This document shows, piece after piece, positions 1 through 28,005 of a stretch of 64,000 bases of DNA. The DNA is taken from the IMG/VR virus record IMGVR_UViG_3300045988_123515, positions 15,468-79,467 of that record; one strand, 5' to 3'. Positions within the stretch are counted from its first letter, which is position 1. Each line of letters starts with the position of its first letter. The translations under genes and the position numbers were made by a program. Source of the DNA: a virus. The notes under the pieces are model-generated. The model did no database searches, was not told the DNA's origin, and saw only the letters and a program-made list of their open reading frames with translations.

Positions 1-957
1 ATTCTGACTGCACAAAAGTTAGGATATCCAGTTTACAACTTTAAGAGAATCGTTCGCAGCATGAGAAAACAGATAGGTGTTGTCGAAAGTCTTATGTCTG
101 CCGGTAAGTGGAACGAGATTAAATATCCAGAAGTTCCAAGCCGTGCAATGATGATTTATCGTAGAGCCTTTGCAAAGCATGATTCAGATGGATTCAGCGA
201 ATTTATCAATAAAGCTGATAAAGGAGAAGTTAAAATCAATGCTTCAACCTTGTATCCATACGACATCGTAGAAAAAATCCTTTATGGAAGAGAAAATAAC
301 AAAGTTCTTGAAGCACAGTGGAAAGCATTTCCAGATTATGTTGAGCAGAGAACAAATGCACTGATAATGGCTGATGTATCTGGTTCAATGTCTTGGAATG
401 GTGGCAGACCGCTAGCCACTGCAATAGGATTGGCGATTTACTTTGCAGAAAGAAATGTTGGAGCATATCATAATCTGTTTATGACATTCTCTAGCAAGCC
501 ACAGATCGTCGCATTAAAGGGCGAAACGCTTCACCAGAAAATAATCAATGTTGCAAAAGCAAATTGGGGTGGTAGCACAAACCTTAAAGCTGCATTTGAG
601 AAAGTACTTGATATTGCTGAAGAGAACAACGTTTCACAAGAAGAGATGCCGAAAGCTATAGTTATTATCTCTGATATGGAAATTGATTACTGCGGGAATA
701 AGGACTGGACTTTCTATGACAAAATGGCAAACAAATTCCAAAAAGCTGGATACATCATTCCGAATGTTATCTTCTGGAATGTCAACAGCAGACATGATGT
801 GTTCCATGCAGATGCTACAAGAAAAGGTGTGCAGCTTGCAAGCGGTCAGTCGGTAACAGTATTCAAACAGGTATTACAGAACCTTGGATACAATCCGATT
901 GAGGCTATGGAAAACACAATCAATTCAGAGAGATACGATTGTATCACTGTTGAATGA
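1..957 (+). CDS. vWA-domain protein (DUF2828/UCP015417-like), 5' end lies outside the window
   Basis: The frame is open from nt 1 to the stop at 955-957. It has a MIDAS-like DVSGSMS motif and a later IVIISDME strand, as in von Willebrand A folds. Confidence 0.7.
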   Translation: MLTAQKLGYPVYNFKRIVRSMRKQIGVVESLMSAGKWNEIKYPEVPSRAMMIYRRAFAKHDSDGFSEFINKADKGEVKINASTLYPYDIVEKILYGRENNKVLEAQWKAFPDYVEQRTNALIMADVSGSMSWNGGRPLATAIGLAIYFAERNVGAYHNLFMTFSSKPQIVALKGETLHQKIINVAKANWGGSTNLKAAFEKVLDIAEENNVSQEEMPKAIVIISDMEIDYCGNKDWTFYDKMANKFQKAGYIIPNVIFWNVNSRHDVFHADATRKGVQLASGQSVTVFKQVLQNLGYNPIEAMENTINSERYDCITVE

Positions 958-1008
958 AATATAAGGTGAAAATCAACTCAGTTTTTTAACTGGCCGTGAC
1001 AAGCGGTA

Positions 1009-1077
1009 CGGAATGTAGCTCAGGTGGGAGAGCGCACTACAAAAGTGAGGTCGCAAGTTCGAATCTTGCCTTTCCGA
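1009..1077 (+). tRNA. tRNA-like element with a truncated 3-bp anticodon stem (non-canonical, possibly not a decoding tRNA)
   Basis: Acceptor CGGAATG/CTTTCCG has 1 mismatch. The D arm is GCTC-AGGTGGGA-GAGC and the T arm is GCAAG-TTCGAAT-CTTGC. Only 19 nt lie between the D and T arms: a CAC/GTG stem, loop TACAAAA with A at position 33, then AGGTC. No CCA is encoded. Confidence 0.5.
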
Positions 1078-1140
1078 TTCCGGTGAATTGCTAGCACTGG
1101 ACAAGTTTCATTTTGAAACTCCTTACGTCTATTTAATGGT

Positions 1141-1193
1141 TTCCAGTATTCCACGTTGGGTGGCTAGTTACGGTTCAAGTCCGTGTACTGGAA
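1141..1193 (+). ncRNA. 53-nt tRNA-like minihelix lacking an anticodon arm
   Basis: It has an 8-bp stem TTCCAGTA/TACTGGAA, a D-like arm CCAC-GTTGG-GTGG and a T arm ACGG-TTCAAGT-CCGT. Only CTAGTT stands where the anticodon arm should be. TTTTT follows. Confidence 0.45.
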
Positions 1194-1215
1194 TTTTTGC
1201 TTAATGAGGTGACTT

Positions 1216-1377
1216 ATGGAAGAAAAAGATTATTGTTGTACATGTAAATGGTACGCAACATACGAAGGTGTCTGCTGTAATGGTGAAAGCAAACATCGTG
1301 CAGATTTCAGATGCTTGGATGATAGTTGCGAATGTTGGGAAGAAATTGAAGATGAAGATAATGGGGAAAGAAATTAA
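1216..1377 (+). CDS. small Cys-rich protein (53 aa, 9 Cys)
   Basis: A GAGGTG RBS lies 5 nt before the ATG. Hand translation gives MEEKDYCCTCKWYATYEGVCCNGESKHRADFRCLDDSCECWEE... It is below the 60-aa cutoff of the ORF track. Confidence 0.5.
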   Translation: MEEKDYCCTCKWYATYEGVCCNGESKHRADFRCLDDSCECWEEIEDEDNGERN

Positions 1378-4131: not shown

Positions 4132-5820
4132 ATGCAAAAATTCACAGAAGGTTCGCTTGAATGGTATCGGGCAGTCTTAAATCAAATCATCAGTGGTGAT
4201 ATGACAATCTTACAGAATCAGAAGGATTGCCTTGATTTACTTCTGAATATGAATATTGACCTTCCTTTTAAGGAAAACCTGGATGCACGGAACATGGCAA
4301 TGAAAGTAAGCAAGTATGCTCATAATACAGCCGCAAGGCAAGCTGCATTGACGGGAAGTGGCAATTTTGACGATATTTACTGGCAGTATTTATTGATGGA
4401 AGCACCATGGCTGTTCGAGAGTTATCTGTACTACATGGAAAAGAACAGACAGCCACGCAGAAAATTCTATGAGCCGAGAAAAAAGACGTTGAAAGTTCTC
4501 GTGCAGGACTTGCAGGACTTAGAAGACAGGAAGATTGAATTTCTGGGTGTATCAATGCCACCCCGAACGGCTAAATCCACTACATGTATTTTCTTCTTGT
4601 CCTGGATAATGGGAAAAAGACCAAACAGCCATAACGCTATGAGTGGGCATAGTGGAATCCTTGCCGATGGTTTCTATGGGGAAATCCAGAATCTGATTTC
4701 AACACCAGAATATACATTTAGTGAAATTTTTCCAACATCAACATTGGAAAGAAAGTCAGCGGATAAAAAAGAAATCAACTTAGGAGCACCAGACCGATTT
4801 TCAACTCTTACTTGCCGTGGTATTGATGGAACATGGACAGGTTCCGTAGATATATCTTCGGACGGATATCTTTATGTCGATGACCTTGTTCGCGACAGAA
4901 CCGAATCTTTAAGCCCTACTCGATTGGAAAACCGGTATCAGGATTATCTGAACGTTCTGGTTGACCGTAAAAATGACGGTTCAAGAGAATTGATGGTTGG
5001 TACTCGATGGAACGTTATGGATCCTCTTGGGAGAGTAGAAACAGAGAATCAAAGCAATCCATTATACCGATTTAGAAAGATTCCAGCATTGAACGAAGAT
5101 GGAGAATCTAATTTTGATTACGATTACGGAGTTGGCTTTTCTACAAAGTATTACGTAGATATGAAAGCCAGACTGGATTCAAATGAATGGCAAGCTAAAT
5201 ATCAGCAGAATCCGTTTATCCGTGAAGGGCTTCTGTTTCCAACTGATGAACTTAGATTATACAATGGTGTTCTTCCTGATGGAGATAGCAGAGTAGTTAC
5301 CGCTTGCGACGTTGCATGGGGTGGTGGAGATAGTCTTTCAATGCCTATTGGGCGAGAATACGAAAATGGAGATGTTTATATTTTTGATTGGGTATTCAAT
5401 AAAGGCACAAAAGAAACAACACTTCCAATAGTTGCCGGAAAAATCATGGGAAATGAAATACGGCAGATTAACTTTGAGGCCAATAATGGTGGAGATATGT
5501 ACAAGATGTACATTGATGAGAAATTAAAGGAACAGAAGTATAAATGTAGTTGCACTTCAAGCAGAGCACCTGGGAATATGGAAAAAATGTCAAAGATTAT
5601 CGCATATTCAGATGATATAAAAAGAAACTTTATTTTTTTGGATGCTGAGCATCGGAGCAAAGAGTATCAAGCAGCAATGGATGAACTTACCTTCTTTGTC
5701 CAACTCGGAAAGAACACTCATGACGACTCCCCAGACTCGCTCACTCAGCTTCAAATGTTTATTGAAAAAGGAAATGGATCAGTTGTAAAAGCAGTTCAAA
5801 ATCCTTTGTGGAGAAGATAA
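4132..5820 (+). CDS. terL: terminase large subunit
   Basis: Walker A-like PPRTAKST, Walker B-like YLYVDDLV and a GTRW coupling motif. The C-terminal acidic nuclease region (ACDVAWGGGDS) and the 562-aa size also fit. Confidence 0.9.
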   Translation: MQKFTEGSLEWYRAVLNQIISGDMTILQNQKDCLDLLLNMNIDLPFKENLDARNMAMKVSKYAHNTAARQAALTGSGNFDDIYWQYLLMEAPWLFESYLYYMEKNRQPRRKFYEPRKKTLKVLVQDLQDLEDRKIEFLGVSMPPRTAKSTTCIFFLSWIMGKRPNSHNAMSGHSGILADGFYGEIQNLISTPEYTFSEIFPTSTLERKSADKKEINLGAPDRFSTLTCRGIDGTWTGSVDISSDGYLYVDDLVRDRTESLSPTRLENRYQDYLNVLVDRKNDGSRELMVGTRWNVMDPLGRVETENQSNPLYRFRKIPALNEDGESNFDYDYGVGFSTKYYVDMKARLDSNEWQAKYQQNPFIREGLLFPTDELRLYNGVLPDGDSRVVTACDVAWGGGDSLSMPIGREYENGDVYIFDWVFNKGTKETTLPIVAGKIMGNEIRQINFEANNGGDMYKMYIDEKLKEQKYKCSCTSSRAPGNMEKMSKIIAYSDDIKRNFIFLDAEHRSKEYQAAMDELTFFVQLGKNTHDDSPDSLTQLQMFIEKGNGSVVKAVQNPLWRR

Positions 5821-5822
5821 TT

Positions 5823-6392
5823 ATGGTAAATACATTGAACAAGCCAGAAGAAGTCGAGTTTAACGGAAAAACATATCGACTTATGGGAGCAAGAAAATAC
5901 TATCTTTCTTCGTCTACTAAAAACGAAGAACGCAGACATGCAAAAGGACTTCATGTAGCCATATGGGAATTTTATCATAATCAAAAAGTGCCAACAGAAT
6001 GCTGCATCCATCACAAAGACGGAAATCCTTTTAATAATGATATTAATAACTTGGAATGCGTGAATAAGTCTGAGCATTTTTCTAAACATTCTTTAAATAA
6101 TTGGAAAAACCCAGAGTTCCGAAAACTTGGCGTAATAAGCCTAAATAATATACGCAATAAAGCGTCTGAATGGCATAAATCGCCAGAAGGATTGAAATGG
6201 CATCAGAAAAATAAAGAAAATTATTCTAAGCCAGTTGATATGTTTGACACAAACGGAAATAAATTGAATTCTTTTGCAAGCTTGACTGATGCGTCAAGAG
6301 AAACAGGAATATCATATTCCGGAATTGCTAAATGTGCAAAAGGTGACCTGAAAACATCTGGTGGATTTGTTTGGAAATATAGTAAAAATTGA
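5823..6392 (+). CDS. HNH homing endonuclease with a C-terminal NUMOD/IENR-like DNA-binding motif
   Basis: HHKDGNPFNNDINNLECVNKSEH is an HNH motif. The C-terminus FASLTDASRETGISYSGIAKC...GGFVWKY is typical of free-standing phage HNH enzymes. Confidence 0.8.
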   Translation: MVNTLNKPEEVEFNGKTYRLMGARKYYLSSSTKNEERRHAKGLHVAIWEFYHNQKVPTECCIHHKDGNPFNNDINNLECVNKSEHFSKHSLNNWKNPEFRKLGVISLNNIRNKASEWHKSPEGLKWHQKNKENYSKPVDMFDTNGNKLNSFASLTDASRETGISYSGIAKCAKGDLKTSGGFVWKYSKN

Positions 6393-6415
6393 TTCTTTGG
6401 GGAAGGAGATAAGAT

Positions 6416-6835
6416 ATGACAACTCGTCAATATTTAAGCCAGATTGAAAAATATGACAATTTGATTCACAACAAAATAATTGAAGAAGAACAACTTAATA
6501 TCTTATCCATGAGTGTAAAATCCGTCCCGATTGGAGAAAAAGTGCAGACTTCTTCAAAACAAGACCCAATGGGAGATATGGTTGCAAAGATTATTGATTT
6601 ACGAGAAGAGATTTCAAAAATGGCAACAGATTTCTTGGAGCAAAAGCAAGAAATTATCAGAACGATAGAAACGGTAGAAGACCCGATTTTGTACGATGTT
6701 CTTTTCAAACGTTATGTGGAATACAAAACGCTTCTCAATATCGCAGATGAACTTGGATATTCCGAAGTGACTATCAAACGATTACATCTAAAGGCGGTAA
6801 AAGCAATAAAAAACATAAAAGGTTTTGAAAGTTGA
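6416..6835 (+). CDS. sigma-70 region-4-like late regulator (RinA/ArpU/DUF1492-type)
   Basis: C-terminal HTH LLNIADELGYSEVTIKRLHLKAVKAIKNI. Its stop codon overlaps the first GATAC repeat of module A. Confidence 0.5.
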   Translation: MTTRQYLSQIEKYDNLIHNKIIEEEQLNILSMSVKSVPIGEKVQTSSKQDPMGDMVAKIIDLREEISKMATDFLEQKQEIIRTIETVEDPILYDVLFKRYVEYKTLLNIADELGYSEVTIKRLHLKAVKAIKNIKGFES

Positions 6836-6876
6836 TACCTTTTGATACTGAATGATACTTACCAAATATGTATAAT
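6832..6876 (+). promoter_or_regulatory. GATAC-repeat module A: three GATAC at 10-bp phasing plus a -10 box
   Basis: GATAC at 6834, 6844 and 6854, with TATAAT at 6871-6876, 12 nt after the third repeat. The core is near-identical to modules B and C. Confidence 0.6.
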
Positions 6877-6883
6877 GTAAAGT

Positions 6884-6917
6884 AAAGCATTGGGCACAAA
6901 AACCTGATGCTTTTTTT
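6884..6917 (+). terminator. intrinsic-terminator-like hairpin directly after the module A -10 box
   Basis: AAAGCAT (6884-6890) pairs with ATGCTTT (6907-6913), followed by a T7 run. Confidence 0.6.
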
Positions 6918-6944
6918 ATTTAATGAAAGGAGTGTGTAGGTTTA

Positions 6945-8381
6945 TTGGCGAATAAAAGTAATTTCATAAATTTATGCCGTGGGGATTTTGGCAGGAAGAT
7001 AGCCTACACAGGCATTGAGCAAATTACTTCCGACAATGTGGTAAAAGTCGTTTCAGATACTATTGGTACACACAACAGAAACCGAACCATGATTGATTAT
7101 CTGTACAGGTACTACAAGGGCGATCAGCCTATCTTGTATCGTGAAAAGCTAGTACGTCCGGAAGTCAATAATAAGGTTTCTGAAAATCATGCACTTGAAA
7201 CAGTCAAATTCAAGGCAGGACAGATATATGGCGAACCAATTCAGTTTGTCTGTAAAAAGAAGAATACAAATGCAGAAACTAATGAACAAGTTGATTTGTT
7301 GAATGATTATCTGGATGAAGCCAATGCAGATGCCAGAAACATCCAGCTTGGAATTTACCAAAGTGCAATAGGAACTGCTTATAAAGCCATACTCAGAGAA
7401 GACGATTGGACGGAAGACAGCGATATGCCCCCATTCAGAATTTTTATTCCATATCCGGGCGATTGCTACATTGTGTATTCCAGAAAAAATGGTAAAGCAA
7501 TGCTATCCGTACAAGTCCTCAAAGACGAAAACGAAGAGCAATATTACTTATGCTATTCCAAGAATCAGTTTTATGAAATACAGAATGGAAAAGTAAAAAG
7601 GGTTGGAATTAATGGTTTTGGTGGAATTCCAATCATCGAATATCCGAACAACCATGACAGGCTATCTGATATTGAAATTGCAATCACATTGTTTGATGCA
7701 ATTAACAAGTATCAGTCTGATAGGCTGAATGGTGTTGAGCAATTTGTACAGGCATTCATGAAATTCAAGAACTGCGAGATAGATGAGAATGAATTTCTCA
7801 AGATGGTAAAACTTGGCGCTATTTCCGTGAAAGATACTGGAAGTGGTTGCCAGTCAGATGTTGAATTAATGACTGCCGAGTTGAATCAGTCTGAAAGCCA
7901 GGTTGCCAAAGATGATATATACAACAATATGCTGATTGTCGAAGCAATGCCAAATAGGCAGAGTAACACAGGAGGCGATACTGGAAACGCAGTGTATCTC
8001 AGGAATGGATGGGATTTTGCTGAACGTGATGCAAAGCTGGTAGAAGCATTTACCAAAGAAGCCGAGAAAGCATCAGTTAGGATTATTCTTAATATCATCC
8101 GCAAAACTACCAAAGATATTAAAATAACCACAAGAGACTTTGATGTAAAAATTACCAGAAACCCAACAGACAACATGCTCGTGAAAGCACAGGCGCTGGA
8201 TTATCTGGTTAAAAACAAAATACATCCACTCATTGCATTGATTACTTGCGGATTATTTAGTGATCCGCAGAAAGTATATGAAATGAGTTTCCCATACATG
8301 CAGTCTTTGTATGAGAATCCAGAAGAGGAAGTGCAGAAAGCACAAGCTCTACTTTCCGGTAAGGATGTGAAAGAAGAATGA
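6945..8381 (+). CDS. portal protein (SPP1 gp6-like)
   Basis: 478 aa, positioned after terL and before a MuF-like gene. TTG start. Confidence 0.8.
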   Translation: MANKSNFINLCRGDFGRKIAYTGIEQITSDNVVKVVSDTIGTHNRNRTMIDYLYRYYKGDQPILYREKLVRPEVNNKVSENHALETVKFKAGQIYGEPIQFVCKKKNTNAETNEQVDLLNDYLDEANADARNIQLGIYQSAIGTAYKAILREDDWTEDSDMPPFRIFIPYPGDCYIVYSRKNGKAMLSVQVLKDENEEQYYLCYSKNQFYEIQNGKVKRVGINGFGGIPIIEYPNNHDRLSDIEIAITLFDAINKYQSDRLNGVEQFVQAFMKFKNCEIDENEFLKMVKLGAISVKDTGSGCQSDVELMTAELNQSESQVAKDDIYNNMLIVEAMPNRQSNTGGDTGNAVYLRNGWDFAERDAKLVEAFTKEAEKASVRIILNIIRKTTKDIKITTRDFDVKITRNPTDNMLVKAQALDYLVKNKIHPLIALITCGLFSDPQKVYEMSFPYMQSLYENPEEEVQKAQALLSGKDVKEE

Positions 8382-24200: not shown

Positions 24201-27200
24201 TAGTGGTAGTTCTTCATCTGGTTCCGGTGGTGCAACACCACATATTCCGGCACTTGATGATGCACTTGCCGATGCTATTTCAAACTATCAAAAGGTTTGG
24301 GATGAAGCATTTGGGGGTATGGAGAATAAGGCTCAACAGGTTGCCAATAAAATTACTGATGCTTTTGAAAAAATCAGAAAAGCAGCAAAACCTACAACCA
24401 ATGCAATCAAAAAATTATGGAATGAGGGGCTTAGTAAGCTCGGTAATTTTTCTATTAATGCATTGAAAAATCTTTGGAAAAATTACTTAAAGCCAATGGG
24501 TAACTGGGTGCTTTCTGACAATTCAGGGCTTCCAAGATTCTTTAAAATTACTAACGACATCCTCAATAAAATCAATTGGTCAAAGCTTCAAACTGTTCTG
24601 AAAAATTTCTTTGAAATGCTTCAAAAACCAACGAAATTTGTCTGGACAGGACTTATGGATTTTTATGAAAATTTCTTAAAACCCATTTCTGCTTGGACAA
24701 TGAATGAAGCTATTCCAAGACTTGTTGACGCACTCACACGATTTGGAAACGCTATTCACTGGGATGAACTGAATGCAGCACTTTCAGATTTTTGGAGTGC
24801 GCTGGCACCGTTCGCTCAAAACGTAGGTGAGGGGCTTGTATCATTCTTTGAAAATCTTCTTAAAATAGGAGCGGATTTCATTAATGATAAGGTTCCGAAT
24901 GGCTTAAAATCCATTTCCGAAGCGTTAAAGAATATTGATCCAGAAACAGCCAAACAAATCGGTGTAGGGCTTGTAAAAGTAGCTGTTGCAATCGCAGGAT
25001 TTAAAGGCCTGACGTTTATCGGTAGCATAATTGGAAAAGATAGTCCTTTAGCAAAAGGTTTAGCATTACTATCTGGGCATCCGTATATCGCTATCGCATT
25101 TGGGTTGGCAGGTGTTGTGGCGGCATTGGATAATTTTGGCATCATAGACGTTGATTGGGAGTGGCTTTCCGGAGAAATTGGCAAGGTCAAAGATGCTATT
25201 TCCAATTTTATTGATAAAGTTGATTGGGATGCAATCGGTACATCAATCGGTAAATTTGCAGATGCATTTGCACCGTTTGCAGCAGGTTTTGCAGATAGTT
25301 TAATTGCTGGATTACAAGGGCTTCTTGATTTAGGTGCAGACCTCTTAAATGCAATCGGTAATGCAATTGGATGGCTGGGTGATGCCCTCGGAAAAGTTGA
25401 TCCAGAAATACTTCAAAAGTTAGGAAATGCGCTTGGTGTATTCGTGGAAGTCAAATTGACTTTTGCTATCGTCAGCAAATTAACAGGGTTAGCTGGAGCA
25501 ATTGTGACTTTTGGAAATTCTTTGGGAAACGGAAAAGTTGCTACCAATACTTCCACATTCGCAAAAACATTAACGCTTTTAAAGGGAGCAATTACTGGTT
25601 TGGCAGTTGGCATGGCTTTGACAGAAGAAACAGTGGGCGAAGCAAAGGATGCGGAAGGCTATGGACAGGACATGGAAAAAGGTTTTTCCTATTTGAGTGC
25701 AGCTGTGGAAGACCTTGGAGTAAAAGCAGGTGTTTCTGATGGACAAATGCAGCAATTGAATAGTCAACTTCAAAGTATGAAAGACCAAGGACTTATATAC
25801 GATCCCTCCGCACTCCAAAATTTTGCAGATAAATTATATGATGCAGGAATTAAAGCGGGAGATTTAAAAGATTCTGCTTTGAATACATCAGAAGTAGTTG
25901 ACCAGTTGCGAATTAGCCTTGGAGATTCTGAAAAAGCAGCTAACTTTGTAGGGAAAAATGGATTCACGTATTTATCTGGTGCGTTAAATTTAATGTATCA
26001 AAAAGGTAAAATAAGTCTTGACCAGTACAAACAATTGAATGAGTATCTAAACACAGAAGATGGTGCTAAAACTGCTGCCGAGAAATATAGGACGCTCTCT
26101 GATAAAATTTCAAAAATGGGAATAAATTCAGATGAACTCTACAATAATATGCCAAGTACCATCGAGTCCGCACTCAATCTTGCTCAAACAAGTATTGACA
26201 ATTTTAATGTATCTCCTGTAGTTGAAGGATTGCAATCGCTTACATCTGAGGCACAAAAAGTAGAATTTGCAAATCTTATAACGCAATCATCAAATGCCAT
26301 TGACGGCATGGGCGGCATCTGGAAAAATGGAAAACAAATCCTGGGTACTGATGCACTTGCTATACACAATGCCATTCAGGCCGGACTAGAGCCGGATAAA
26401 GATGGTTATTATGACCTTGGAAACGGTCAGATGGTACAATACGGTAAATCAATCAAGGACAATAAAGAACCAATCAAATCCACATTAGACGATACCTTGA
26501 AGTCAATACTTACAGACAAAGATCTGATGGGAGAGGGCTACAATCTTATGTATGATATATCCGGATATCATATTGACGGATATGTAGAAGGCATGGCAGG
26601 ATTAGGATATAAAGAGGTTAAGAAAGCTTATGAAGCTGCCTTTAACATAGATCAAAATGTTAAAGATAACACCAAAAAAGATGGAGAATCACTCGCTCGA
26701 AATACCGTTGCAGGATATAACGATTATTTGAAAAAGGATGGAGTGACAAATACTTCTCTTGTTACAGAGCAGTGGGCTAAGCAAGGAATCACTGATCCGG
26801 CAGAAAACAAGCTGGAGATTCATTCTCCATCCAAACTTTTTGCCCGATATGCAGAATATGTCGAAAAAGGCTACTCTGATAAAATCAAGAGCCTTGCGAC
26901 AATAACTGCTGCATCCATGAATACTTGGATTTTACAGGGAATCCAGACACCAATAATTAGTAAACTGAGGATTGAAAAAGGTAGTTCCGGTCTGGCAAGT
27001 GATTATGGCACAGCTTTTGGAAAAGGGTTATCTTCTGGTATACTTGAAACCAAAGATAAAAATGAATCCGCTGTCGGCACAGTTCTCTCCGCATTGAAAA
27101 CCAAGCTGAACACCTACAATACCTCATTTGAGAATATTGGTGGAAAGTACATGAGAAAGCTTAATTCAGGAATCAATTCTGAAAAGAATGATCTTGAAAA

Positions 27201-27860: not shown

Positions 27861-27920
27861 ATTTAACCGTTAATTTTGGTAAAACCAGTGGGATAGGGTA
27901 GCTCCCGAAAAGCGTAAACC

Positions 27921-27949
27921 TTGATACGCCTGTCCACTGTTTTTATAAA
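27921..27949 (+). promoter_or_regulatory. sigma-A-type promoter for the inserted three-gene unit
   Basis: TTGATA, a 17-nt spacer, then TATAAA. Confidence 0.55.
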
Positions 27950-28005
27950 TCAAGGATTCTGGCATATTACGGAGACGCCAACGACCAACAAGGAGGTTAT
28001 CTATT

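What the first reader, a model, noticed from the sequence alone, without database searches (positions are those of the whole stretch)
1..1200. vWA protein followed by two tRNA mimics with a crippled or missing anticodon arm
Directly downstream of a vWA/MIDAS protein (5'-truncated, DUF2828-like) lie two elements with unmistakable tRNA T-loops (GTTCGAATC and GGTTCAAGTCC) and D arms. Neither is a normal tRNA. Element 1 (1009-1077) is 4 nt short, with a 3-bp anticodon stem and loop UACAAAA carrying A33 instead of the near-universal U33. Element 2 (1141-1193) has acceptor, D and T arms but only 6 nt in place of the anticodon arm. A perfect 7-bp hairpin AGTTTCA-TTT-TGAAACT (1104-1120) sits between them. 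Established precedent exists: bacterial and phage Ro60/Rsr proteins (TROVE plus vWA) are encoded next to Y RNAs (YrlA) that contain a tRNA-like module. My inference is that this could be an analogous vWA-protein/tRNA-mimic RNP. Alternatively these could be decoy tRNAs against host anticodon nucleases or tRNA-modifying defences. The topology differs from YrlA because the acceptor stem is open here, so any relationship is not simple homology.
Basis: partly seen in the sequence, partly recalled or inferred. Interest (0 to 1): 0.7.

Follow-up and report, generated by a model that had tools for sequence, protein, structure and literature searches.

The report
Armless tRNA mimics ending a phage tRNA array
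Both odd tRNA-like elements are real, conserved RNAs at the end of a gut phage's tRNA gene cluster, next to a Ro60-like protein gene, but they persist in related phages that lack that gene, so its RNA partners are probably other small RNAs lying upstream of the window.

Summary
Element 1 (1009-1077) is a canonical tRNA body with a 3-bp anticodon stem and no U33. Element 2 (1142-1193) has acceptor, D and T arms joined by 5 nt, with no anticodon arm. Both are kept by selection: 8 of element 2's 16 pairs show compensatory changes, and element 1's short stem covaries.

The vWA protein has a Ro60/TROVE fold (pLDDT 94.8; top PDB matches are phage Ro60, Xenopus Ro and Rsr), a link already reflected in phage annotation.

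The proposed pairing of protein and elements is not supported. A conserved hairpin (1079-1101), element 2 and a U-tract form the 3' end of the tRNA array, and they also do so in at least 14 related contigs with no vWA gene. Element 1's slot holds ordinary 72-nt tRNAs in many relatives.

My best reading is that element 2 is a minimal RNase P/Z substrate and 3'-end signal. This is inferred, not shown.

A different RNA family tracks the gene: a 7-bp stem, ACAGCAA, a variable interior, then the 3' strand and G. It occurs in gut, Listeria, Mycobacterium, Vibrio and Felix-like E. coli phages and is absent from the window and from vWA-less relatives. I found no Rfam or literature description of it.

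The parts
1..957 (+). 3' part (318 codons plus stop) of a 486-aa Ro60-like protein: a helical DUF2828 region followed by a DUF7788/vWA domain with a DxSxS MIDAS motif
   Evidence: Pfam DUF2828 3.8e-42, DUF7788 7.7e-41, VWA_2. PHROG 850 'RNA-binding protein' 1e-138. AlphaFold pLDDT 94.8. Foldseek top matches are TROVE/Ro60 structures.
958..1008 (+). Leader before element 1 (GUGAAAAUCAACUCAGU...GGCCGUGACAAGCGGUA). A second copy of this leader precedes the long-arm tRNA-like RNA upstream of the vWA gene.
   Evidence: Alignment of window 955-1016 with L001 1500-1577. Homology with some vWA-less relatives starts near 959.
1009..1077 (+). Element 1: a 69-nt tRNA-like RNA with canonical acceptor, D and T arms and variable loop, but a 3-bp anticodon stem (CAC/GUG) and loop UACAAAA without U33
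   Evidence: ARAGORN and Rfam tRNA 47 bits with a 4-nt gap. Eight distinct short variants, with compensatory changes in the 3-bp stem (CGC/GCG in L019) and in the T stem (window versus L001).
1079..1101 (+). Conserved hairpin after the tRNA: 7-bp stem with a 9-nt loop AAUUGCUAG (family consensus AAnUGCnAU)
   Evidence: 98.8% of cells paired and 5 of 7 pairs with compensatory changes in 12 variants. Present in every relative that carries element 2.
1104..1120 (+). Perfect 7-bp hairpin AGUUUCA-UUU-UGAAACU inside a variable pyrimidine-rich spacer. It is lineage-specific.
   Evidence: Present only in the window, L001, L003 and L129. Other relatives have different spacers of 20-39 nt.
1142..1193 (+). 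Element 2: a tRNA body without an anticodon arm. It has a 7-bp acceptor, a 4-bp D arm with loop GUUGG, a 5-nt linker, a 5-bp T arm with loop UUCAAGU, and discriminator A1193. U1141 is the conserved N-1.
   Evidence: Covariance model R1 scores 80 bits, with one copy in 64 kb. 99.7% of cells paired and 8 of 16 pairs with compensatory changes. N-1 is U in 35 of 35 variants, while the discriminator is A, U or C.
1194..1198 (+). U-tract directly after element 2
   Evidence: At least 3 T in the 6 nt after the discriminator in all 35 distinct variants, and usually 4-7.
1207..1377 (+). Ribosome-binding site (GAGGUG, 1207-1212) and a 53-aa Cys-rich ORF (1216-1377), the first gene after the array
   Evidence: ORF list. 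Conserved downstream in most relatives but replaced by another gene in some. No Pfam or PHROG hit.

Best explanation
Bases 1-1200 are the 3' end of a phage tRNA-gene array that carries an inserted Ro60-like gene cassette.

Element 1 occupies the last tRNA slot of the array. In this lineage it is a structurally maintained but non-decoding tRNA-like RNA, with a canonical body, a 3-bp anticodon stem and no U33.

The conserved hairpin (1079-1101), a variable spacer, element 2 and a U-tract together form an array-terminal module that does not depend on the Ro-like gene.

Element 2 is a minimal tRNA body. It keeps a 12-bp acceptor/T coaxial stack, an intact D-loop/T-loop elbow and a U at position -1. 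I infer three consequences:
- RNase P cuts at 1141/1142.
- RNase Z, or termination at the U-tract, forms the 3' end at about 1193-1198.
- This separates the tRNA transcripts from the downstream mRNA, whose 22-nt leader starts at the U-tract, and releases a stable RNA of about 52 nt that could receive CCA.

Shown here: the structures, their covariation, their position, their independence from the vWA gene and the Ro60 fold of the protein. Inferred: the cleavages, the termination and the stability of the product.

The Ro-like protein's own RNA partners are more likely the ACAGCAA stem elements and the long-arm tRNA-likes upstream of the gene.
For: - Element 2 covaries in all three helices: 8 of 16 pairs have compensatory changes.
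- There is one copy per locus, always on the gene strand at the end of the array, in the window and 71 other loci.
- It keeps the same position in at least 14 relatives without a vWA gene.
- N-1 is U in 35 of 35 variants, a U-tract always follows, and the discriminator is not conserved (A 16, U 13, C 6), which argues against a specific aminoacylation identity.
- The ribosome-binding site and start codon of the next gene lie about 14-23 nt after the U-tract, and the variable spacer holds no conserved promoter.
- Other tRNAs of the array are also followed by hairpins.
- There is no match in bacterial genomes, so it is not an attachment-site fragment.
- The ACAGCAA-element model R2 gives no hit in the window or in 14 vWA-less loci, but does hit beside DUF2828 genes in very diverse phages.
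Against: - No expression or end-mapping data exist for this phage.
- The first five acceptor pairs and both loops are nearly invariant across types whose flanks no longer align. That is more sequence constraint than RNase P/Z processing alone needs, and it hints at a specific binding partner.
- The simple terminator scan does not flag the site, because the 'loop' is a branched 37-nt interior.
- Only one such element exists in 64 kb, so it is not a general punctuation device.
- Element 1's short forms were seen only in vWA-positive loci. The sample is too small to be significant, but a link to the Ro-like protein is not excluded.
Confidence: 0.45

Rival explanations
1. One reading: elements 1 and 2 are the Y-RNA-like partners of the Ro60-like vWA protein and form a tRNA-mimic RNP with it.
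For: - The protein has the Ro60 fold.
- Bacterial YrlA RNAs carry acceptor-like, D and T arms and lack an anticodon arm (PMC4201824), much like element 2.
- The elements lie 52-185 nt after the gene.
- Short-stem forms of element 1 were found only in vWA-positive loci: about 6-8 distinct variants against 0 of 8 vWA-negative.
Against: - Element 2 and the hairpin are retained in at least 14 relatives lacking the gene.
- They are missing from the 85%-identity vWA group and from all distant DUF2828 phages tested.
- The stretch has no GNCGAAN0-1G motif, no closing stem with ACAGCAA, and no Rfam YrlA or Y RNA hit.
- The co-occurrence of short element 1 with the gene is not statistically significant.
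Confidence: 0.12
2. Element 2, and possibly element 1, is a stable tRNA-body decoy or sponge. It titrates a host factor that recognises the acceptor stem and elbow, such as a tRNA-targeting toxin, a modification enzyme or a defence sensor.
For: - Acceptor pairs 1-3 and 5, the D loop GUUGG and the T loop UUCAAGU are nearly invariant while other stems covary.
- The element sits in a phage tRNA array, a kind of locus linked to evading tRNA-targeting defences (established knowledge).
- The upstream ACAGCAA elements often display anticodon-loop mimics, which suggests the locus deals in tRNA mimicry.
Against: - There is no anticodon loop, so it cannot act as a decoy for anticodon nucleases.
- No candidate target is identified.
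- The family is restricted to one phage clade.
- The conserved U-tract and U-1 are explained more simply by processing or termination.
Confidence: 0.2
3. The elements are decaying tRNA pseudogenes with no function of their own.
For: - The slot of element 1 holds normal 72-nt tRNAs with the same acceptor and T arm in many relatives.
- A 4-nt shortening of the anticodon stem could be a simple deletion.
Against: - Eight distinct short variants keep the cloverleaf, with compensatory changes in the 3-bp stem and the T stem.
- Element 2 shows 8 compensatory pairs and 99.7% pairing across three divergent types.
Confidence: 0.03
4. The feature acts at the DNA level, as an attachment-site fragment of a host tRNA gene or as a palindromic protein-binding site.
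For: - Phage attachment sites often carry tRNA 3' fragments (established knowledge).
- TTCCAGTA...TACTGGAA is an inverted repeat.
Against: - There is no match in 185,579 bacterial and archaeal genomes.
- Both halves of the acceptor are present.
- Compensatory changes occur in the internal D and T stems.
- Every copy is on the transcribed strand.
Confidence: 0.02

Closest known systems
Ro60/Rsr with Y RNAs, especially YrlA (Rfam RF02553)
   Same: - The protein has the Ro60 HEAT-ring plus vWA fold.
- Small RNAs with tRNA-like modules lie beside the gene.
- YrlA's tRNA-like domain also lacks an anticodon arm (PMC4201824).
- The Enceladus homologue is followed by a YrlA-like RNA scoring 39.8 bits.
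   Different: - Elements 1 and 2 have open acceptor stems, no Ro-binding stem and no GNCGAA motif.
- They occur without the gene in related phages.
- The protein matches Pfam DUF2828, and TROVE is not among its Pfam matches at E <= 0.1.
tRNA-like processing signals: plant mitochondrial t-elements and MALAT1 mascRNA (from my own knowledge)
   Same: A tRNA-like fold without a decoding function lies at a transcript boundary and is expected to recruit RNase P/Z. The acceptor/T stack and the elbow are retained.
   Different: This one is bacteriophage-encoded, the anticodon arm is removed exactly while a true D arm remains, and a U-tract follows. Cleavage has not been demonstrated.
Stable non-tRNA RNAs in the phage T4 tRNA cluster, species 1 and 2 (rnaC, rnaD) (from my own knowledge)
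   Same: Small structured RNAs of unknown function are encoded within a phage tRNA cluster and are presumably matured along with the tRNAs.
   Different: There is no sequence relationship. The T4 RNAs are 120-140 nt and are not anticodon-armless tRNA bodies.
tRNA-like domain of tmRNA
   Same: An acceptor stem and T arm without a normal anticodon arm.
   Different: There is no mRNA or pseudoknot domain. ARAGORN finds no tmRNA, and Rfam finds none at E <= 10 in 940-1260. Element 2 has a proper D stem.
Dictyostelium Class I RNAs (Rfam RF01414). This comparison applies to the upstream ACAGCAA elements, not to the window elements.
   Same: Both have a short stem closing the 5' and 3' ends that starts with G, a motif CUUACAGCAA(UUA) next to the 5' strand, a variable interior, a 3' strand followed by UG, and a length of about 60 nt. 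RF01414 is the best non-tRNA Rfam match for these elements in the two phage lineages scanned, at 24.3 and 23.1 bits (PMC7919456).
   Different: The scores are well below the gathering score of 41.5. I could not check whether dictyostelids encode DUF2828 proteins. The resemblance may be convergent or a matter of chance.

Membership tests
Canonical elongator tRNA (element 1) | 7-bp acceptor stem; D arm with G18 G19; T arm with a UUCRA loop | tested here: met
   Read from the sequence. Rfam tRNA scores 47 bits against a gathering score of 29. ARAGORN calls it. There is one U-U mismatch in the acceptor.
Canonical elongator tRNA (element 1) | 5-bp anticodon stem with a 7-nt loop carrying U33 and a purine at 37 | tested here: not met
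   The stem is 3 bp (CAC/GUG), with a 4-nt gap in the Rfam alignment. The loop is UACAAAA with A33. Relatives have UGUAAAA or UACAAAU, and none has U33.
Canonical tRNA (element 2) | Presence of an anticodon arm | tested here: not met
   A 5-nt linker joins the D and T arms. ARAGORN and Rfam give no call.
YrlA / bacterial Y RNA | Stem formed by the 5' and 3' ends carrying the Ro-binding motif GNCGAAN0-1G | tested here: not met
   The motif is absent on both strands of 957-1215. The termini of elements 1 and 2 form acceptor stems instead.
YrlA / bacterial Y RNA | Match to Rfam RF02553 | tested here: not met
   No hit at E <= 10 in 940-1260.
YrlA / bacterial Y RNA | Conserved adjacency to a Ro60 orthologue | tested here: not met
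   Adjacent in the window, but element 2 and the hairpin are kept in at least 14 vWA-less relatives and are absent beside distant homologues.
YrlA / bacterial Y RNA | Binding by the Ro60 orthologue | not testable with these tools
   Needs RIP or EMSA.
Ro60/TROVE protein (the vWA protein) | Ring of HEAT-like helices followed by a vWA domain with MIDAS | tested here: met
   The model has pLDDT 94.8. Full-length Foldseek matches are 9kop (E 5e-8), 1yvr (TM 0.60) and 2nvo. D293, S295 and S297 are invariant in 65 homologues.
Ro60/TROVE protein (the vWA protein) | Sequence-level match to Pfam TROVE or to solved Ro60 chains | tested here: not met
   The Pfam matches at E <= 0.1 are DUF2828, DUF7788 and VWA families, and TROVE is not among them. 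A profile search of PDB sequences finds only vWA domains. The relationship is visible only at the level of fold.
RNase P/Z tRNA-like processing element (element 2) | 12-bp acceptor/T coaxial stack, D/T-loop elbow, and a pyrimidine at -1 | tested here: met
   7 + 5 bp. GG in the D loop and UUCAAGU in the T loop are close to invariant. U-1 in 35 of 35 variants.
RNase P/Z tRNA-like processing element (element 2) | Cleavage at the predicted sites | not testable with these tools
   Needs enzymology or end mapping.
Intrinsic terminator (element 2 plus U-tract) | Stable stem immediately followed by a U-run | tested here: inconclusive
   The U-tract is conserved in all variants, and the stem base is GC-containing and invariant. 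The 'loop' is a 37-nt branched interior, and the consensus scan does not call it.

The most novel reading that the evidence does not exclude
The locus encodes a modular tRNA-mimicry system built around a phage Ro60-like protein. It would comprise:
- ACAGCAA-stem RNAs that display anticodon-stem-loop mimics (Lys UUU, Asn GUU, Ser, Cys).
- Long-arm tRNA-likes.
- A short-stem tRNA (element 1).
- An anticodon-armless tRNA body (element 2).

Together these would bait, sense or buffer host tRNA-targeting defences or tRNA quality control. The ACAGCAA elements would be the cognate 'Y RNAs' of all DUF2828 proteins, and possibly evolutionary relatives of the Dictyostelium Class I RNAs, whose function is unknown.
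Probability: 0.12. Interest if true: 0.9.

Novelty: new variant of a known kind. Interest (0 to 1): 0.6.

Why it matters
Phage tRNA arrays are usually read as codon-usage or anti-defence supplements made only of tRNAs. This locus shows that they also carry conserved, covarying tRNA derivatives: a body without an anticodon arm and a tRNA with a 3-bp anticodon stem. Standard tools either miss these or mislabel them; ARAGORN calls element 1 'tRNA-Cys(ACA)'.

The check also points away from the flagged elements and towards an apparently undescribed small-RNA family. That family accompanies Ro60-like DUF2828 genes in phages of Firmicutes, Actinobacteria and Proteobacteria, and 710 phage records carry the gene.

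This gives a concrete, testable candidate for the RNA ligand of a widespread phage protein, and a lead on why Ro-like proteins sit inside tRNA arrays.

Tried and rejected
- **tmRNA or YrlA identity for the window elements.** ARAGORN finds no tmRNA, Rfam gives no such hit at E <= 10 in 940-1260, and the GNCGAA motif is absent.
- **Attachment-site or host origin.** A degenerate element-2 pattern found nothing in the GTDB genomes.
- **Wider distribution of element 2.** Model R1 found no full-length copy in 55 more divergent DUF2828 loci, nor in P100, KVP40, Felix-like or Enceladus phages. A generic descriptor for anticodon-armless tRNAs found essentially only this family.
- **Alternative pairing between the hairpin at 1079-1101 and element 2's acceptor.** Both share TTCC...GGAA, but the hairpin stem covaries (AAT/ATT, TAC/GTA) while element 2's stays fixed.
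- **A promoter in the spacer.** The spacer is not conserved and has no consistent -35/-10.
- **Hairpin loop as a detached anticodon loop.** UGC is central and invariant, but position 33 varies and a detached arm has no precedent, so I dropped this.
- **Kissing interaction between the hairpin loop and the linker.** Only a palindromic CUAG in the window lineage supports it, and it is not conserved.
- **Sequence-level link to Ro60.** Single-sequence and profile searches of PDB sequences found only vWA domains. Only the fold search showed it.
- **Dictyostelium link.** The literature gave no domain information for the Class I RNA-interacting protein DDB_G0281243 and no evidence of a TROVE or DUF2828 protein in dictyostelids. 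In a 63-kb search the RF01414 hits fall below E = 1.
- **Host or taxon of the phage.** No close named relative was found.
- **Expression evidence from the Listeria phage CKA15 paper.** Its top ncRNA region (26,236-26,727) is not the ACAGCAA cluster (25,290-25,552). I could not establish whether one of its two other hot regions is.
Full report
**Setting**

The window is an uncultured human-gut tailed phage with all genes on the + strand. Terminase, portal, tail protein and endolysin lie downstream of the region. The only close public relatives are unannotated faecal contigs.

Bases 1-957 encode the C-terminal 318 residues of a 486-aa protein. The full-length gene is in MT838485 (locus L001, 97.5% identical). 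Its domains are DUF2828, DUF7788 and VWA_2, and it belongs to PHROG 850 'RNA-binding protein'.

Yes.

Element 1 (1009-1077) is a textbook tRNA body. It has a 7-bp acceptor with one U-U mismatch, a D arm with G18 G19, G26, variable loop AGGUC and a T arm with loop UUCGAAU. Its anticodon stem, however, is only 3 bp (CAC/GUG), and its loop UACAAAA lacks U33. ARAGORN calls it tRNA-Cys(aca), and Rfam tRNA gives 47 bits with a 4-nt gap in the anticodon stem.

Element 2 (1142-1193) has:
- a 7-bp acceptor;
- a 4-bp D arm with loop GUUGG;
- a 5-nt linker, CUAGU;
- a 5-bp T arm with loop UUCAAGU;
- a discriminator, followed by UUUUU.

Neither detector calls it.

The hairpin at 1104-1120 exists but is confined to the window's nearest relatives. 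A different hairpin, at 1079-1101, is the conserved one.

**Are the elements maintained?**

I fetched 80 related loci through the protein and 59 through a 22-mer of element 2.

Element 2 occurs in three divergent types, A, B and C. An alignment of 18 distinct sequences gives 99.7% paired cells. Eight of 16 pairs have changes on both sides, spread over all three helices, while both loops and acceptor pairs 1-3 and 5 are invariant. Slid-register controls collapse to 28-53% pairing. A covariance model finds exactly one copy per locus, always on the gene strand, in the window and 71 other loci.

The hairpin stem covaries (UUCCAAUG/CAUUGGAA, UUCCUACG/CGUAGGAA, UCUGGCA/UGCCAGA) around a constant loop AAnUGCnAU.

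Element 1's short form exists in eight distinct variants. One carries a compensatory change in the 3-bp stem (CGC/GCG), and the window differs from L001 by another in the T stem.

These are therefore not decaying pseudogenes.

**What occupies the slot of element 1 elsewhere?**

About 52 nt after the vWA stop codon, relatives carry one of the following:
- normal 72-nt tRNAs with the same acceptor and T arm (Thr UGU, Ile UAU);
- a second scaffold with anticodon UGA or UCA (opal-suppressor-like, some with C33);
- tRNA-Ser(GCU) or tRNA-Met.

The central part of this tRNA is highly variable between close relatives, while its ends are nearly identical.

**The protein**

An AlphaFold model built on 65 diverse homologues has pLDDT 94.8. 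Its three best full-length PDB matches are the Thermus phage Ro60 (9kop), Xenopus Ro (1yvr, TM 0.60) and Deinococcus Rsr (2nvo). Only vWA domains follow. Sequence and profile searches of PDB sequences do not see this relationship.

The family is large. It has 6,621 clusters at 50% identity and occurs in 710 phage records, many annotated 'Ro-like RNA binding protein'. The Ro60 link is therefore already known in annotation. A P100-like Listeria phage study reached it by HHpred and also found the protein in virions (PMC12282133).

**Do the elements belong with the protein?**

This is the key test, and the answer is no for element 2 and the hairpin.

At least 14 related contigs have the same array (Gln-Met-...-Thr/Met/Ser/Ile), the hairpin and element 2, but no vWA homologue within 4.5-10 kb.

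Conversely, element 2 is missing from:
- the 85%-identity vWA group (L002, L072-L082), which has a plain hairpin downstream instead;
- Listeria phage P100, Vibrio phage KVP40, a Felix-like E. coli phage and Mycobacterium phage Enceladus;
- 55 more divergent loci.

The window stretch also has no YrlA motif and no Rfam Y RNA hit.

Short-stem element 1 was seen only in vWA-positive loci, but with only 8 distinct vWA-negative lineages this is not significant.

**What does track the protein?**

Upstream of the gene, outside the window, L001 carries several structured RNAs:
- a 121-nt 'tRNA' whose anticodon arm is replaced by a 65-nt arm;
- a second aberrant tRNA-like;
- two stem-enclosed elements, the last of which ends just before the Shine-Dalgarno sequence.

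All carry (U/C)UAC(A/U)GCAA.

The same architecture appears in 48 loci at 39-71% protein identity and in four cultured phages. It consists of a 7-bp closing stem, two variable nucleotides, ACAGCAA, a variable interior, the 3' strand and then G.
- Among 82 distinct TACAGCAA sites, 56 have a perfect 7/7 partner, against 7.9 expected from shuffled strands.
- Of those 56, 53 are followed by G.
- The stems covary freely.

P100 and CKA15 have three copies in the unannotated gap directly upstream of the gene. Enceladus has two copies flanking a YrlA-like RNA directly downstream. The Felix-like phage has three, and KVP40 has the motif 29 nt before the start codon.

A covariance model of the family hits beside the gene, on its strand, in most remaining loci. 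It gives no hit in the 64-kb window or in the 14 vWA-less relatives.

Other features of the family:
- Of 75 short elements, 29 contain an anticodon-stem-loop-like hairpin (expected 6.4). The loops include CUUUUAA, CUGUUAA, CUGCUAA, CUUGAAA and CUGCAAA.
- Long versions carry a T arm followed by a D arm, the YrlA order.
- Rfam 15 has no family for them. The best match is a sub-threshold hit to Dictyostelium Class I RNA, which shares the stem, the CUUACAGCAA motif and the 3' UG (PMC7919456).
- A literature search for the motif found nothing relevant.

**Mechanism for the window elements**

Four features fit a processing and 3'-end module that separates the array from the downstream mRNA and releases a small tRNA-body RNA:
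- U-1 in 35 of 35 variants;
- the 12-bp acceptor/T stack and the conserved elbow;
- a discriminator that is not conserved;
- an invariable U-tract, with the next gene's ribosome-binding site about 14-23 nt downstream.

This mechanism is an inference. The near-invariance of the acceptor base pairs and of both loops leaves room for a specific binding partner, which is the decoy or sponge rival. Element 1 cannot decode normally, and its role is open.

**Verdict**

The Ro60 analogy holds for the protein and for the locus as a whole. The specific assignment of elements 1 and 2 as its RNA partners is not supported.

Element 2 is a new, clade-restricted variant of a tRNA-like element. The more important lead is the ACAGCAA element family, which lies upstream of the window.

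Noticed in passing
Outside the window: L001 1787-1846 and 1854-1920; L141 (P100) 2656-2922; L142 (Enceladus) 4452-4507 and 4654-4701; L144 (Felix-like) 4716, 5189, 5276; many of L158-L224: A widespread small-RNA family lies beside DUF2828/Ro-like genes. Its form is a 7-bp closing stem, NN, ACAGCAA, a variable interior, the 3' strand and then G. I counted 88 distinct examples with freely covarying stems. It is absent from the window and from vWA-less relatives. I found no description of it in Rfam 15 or in the searched literature.
   Followed up: yes
Same elements, e.g. L176 5853, L179 2313, L213 2334, L002 2069: Of 75 short ACAGCAA elements, 29 contain an anticodon-stem-loop mimic with U33 and R37 (expected 6.4). 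The anticodons are UUU, GUU, GCU, UGA and GCA. With the 7-bp closing stem they resemble tRNAs lacking both D and T arms.
   Followed up: partly
L001 1570-1690; L171 2233-2347; L174 4004-4133; L178 2203-2322; L179 2193-2308: These are 'tRNAs' of 114-130 nt (Rfam tRNA 42-49 bits) with normal acceptor, D and T arms. A long arm bearing the UACAGCAA motif replaces the anticodon arm. They look like YrlA with an unpermuted topology.
   Followed up: partly
L001 1855-1919; L141 2657-2712 and 2745-2800: The best non-tRNA Rfam match of the ACAGCAA elements in the two phage lineages scanned is Dictyostelium Class I RNA (RF01414) at 24.3, 23.1 and 19.1 bits, against a gathering score of 41.5. Both share a stem starting with G, CU(U/A)ACAGCAAUUA and a 3' CUG. 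Class I RNAs are reported as unique to dictyostelids and their function is unknown.
   Followed up: partly
Loci L022-L075, about 52-61 nt after the vWA stop: The last tRNA slot varies between close relatives. One scaffold carries Thr UGU, Ile UAU or the short stem. Another 72-nt class-I scaffold carries anticodon UGA or UCA (opal-suppressor-like), some with C33 instead of U33.
   Followed up: partly
L141 (P100) 5774-7057; L225 (CKA15): In P100-like Listeria phages an RtcB-type 'tRNA splicing ligase' lies four genes downstream of the Ro-like gene, recalling the bacterial rsr-yrlA-rtcBA operon. The CKA15 Ro-like protein was detected in purified virions (PMC12282133).
   Followed up: no
L142 (Enceladus) 4535-4643: A YrlA-like RNA (RF02553, 39.8 bits, E 1.6e-7 in a small search, below the gathering score of 69) sits between two ACAGCAA elements just after the Ro-like gene.
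   Followed up: no
L029 and L034, between the slot tRNA and the hairpin: An insertion of about 110 nt inside a hairpin-like stem (UUCCAUAUAG...CUAUAUGGA) contains further T-arm-like pieces. It is followed by a 76-nt odd tRNA that ARAGORN cannot assign.
   Followed up: no
window 27886-27955 (+): An int-alpA RNA motif (RF02996) scores 51.4 bits, above its gathering score of 35.8.
   Followed up: no
window 1216-1377 (+): A conserved 53-aa Cys-rich ORF (CC-x-C...CC...C-x4-C-x-C) is the first gene after the array in most relatives. It has no Pfam or PHROG match.
   Followed up: no
L205 6126-6188; L179 5488-5652; L176 4469-4732: Other structured RNAs occur in DUF2828-containing tRNA arrays: a Pistol ribozyme (63.6 bits, above its gathering score), a HEARO-like hit and a group I intron-like hit (both below their gathering scores).
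   Followed up: no
window 958-1008 and L001 1508-1569: The same leader of about 50 nt (GUGAAAAUCAAC[CU]CAGU...CCGU.A.A.GCGGUA) precedes both the long-arm tRNA-like upstream of the vWA gene and element 1 downstream. The vWA cassette is therefore flanked by direct repeats, which may explain its presence or absence among relatives.
   Followed up: partly
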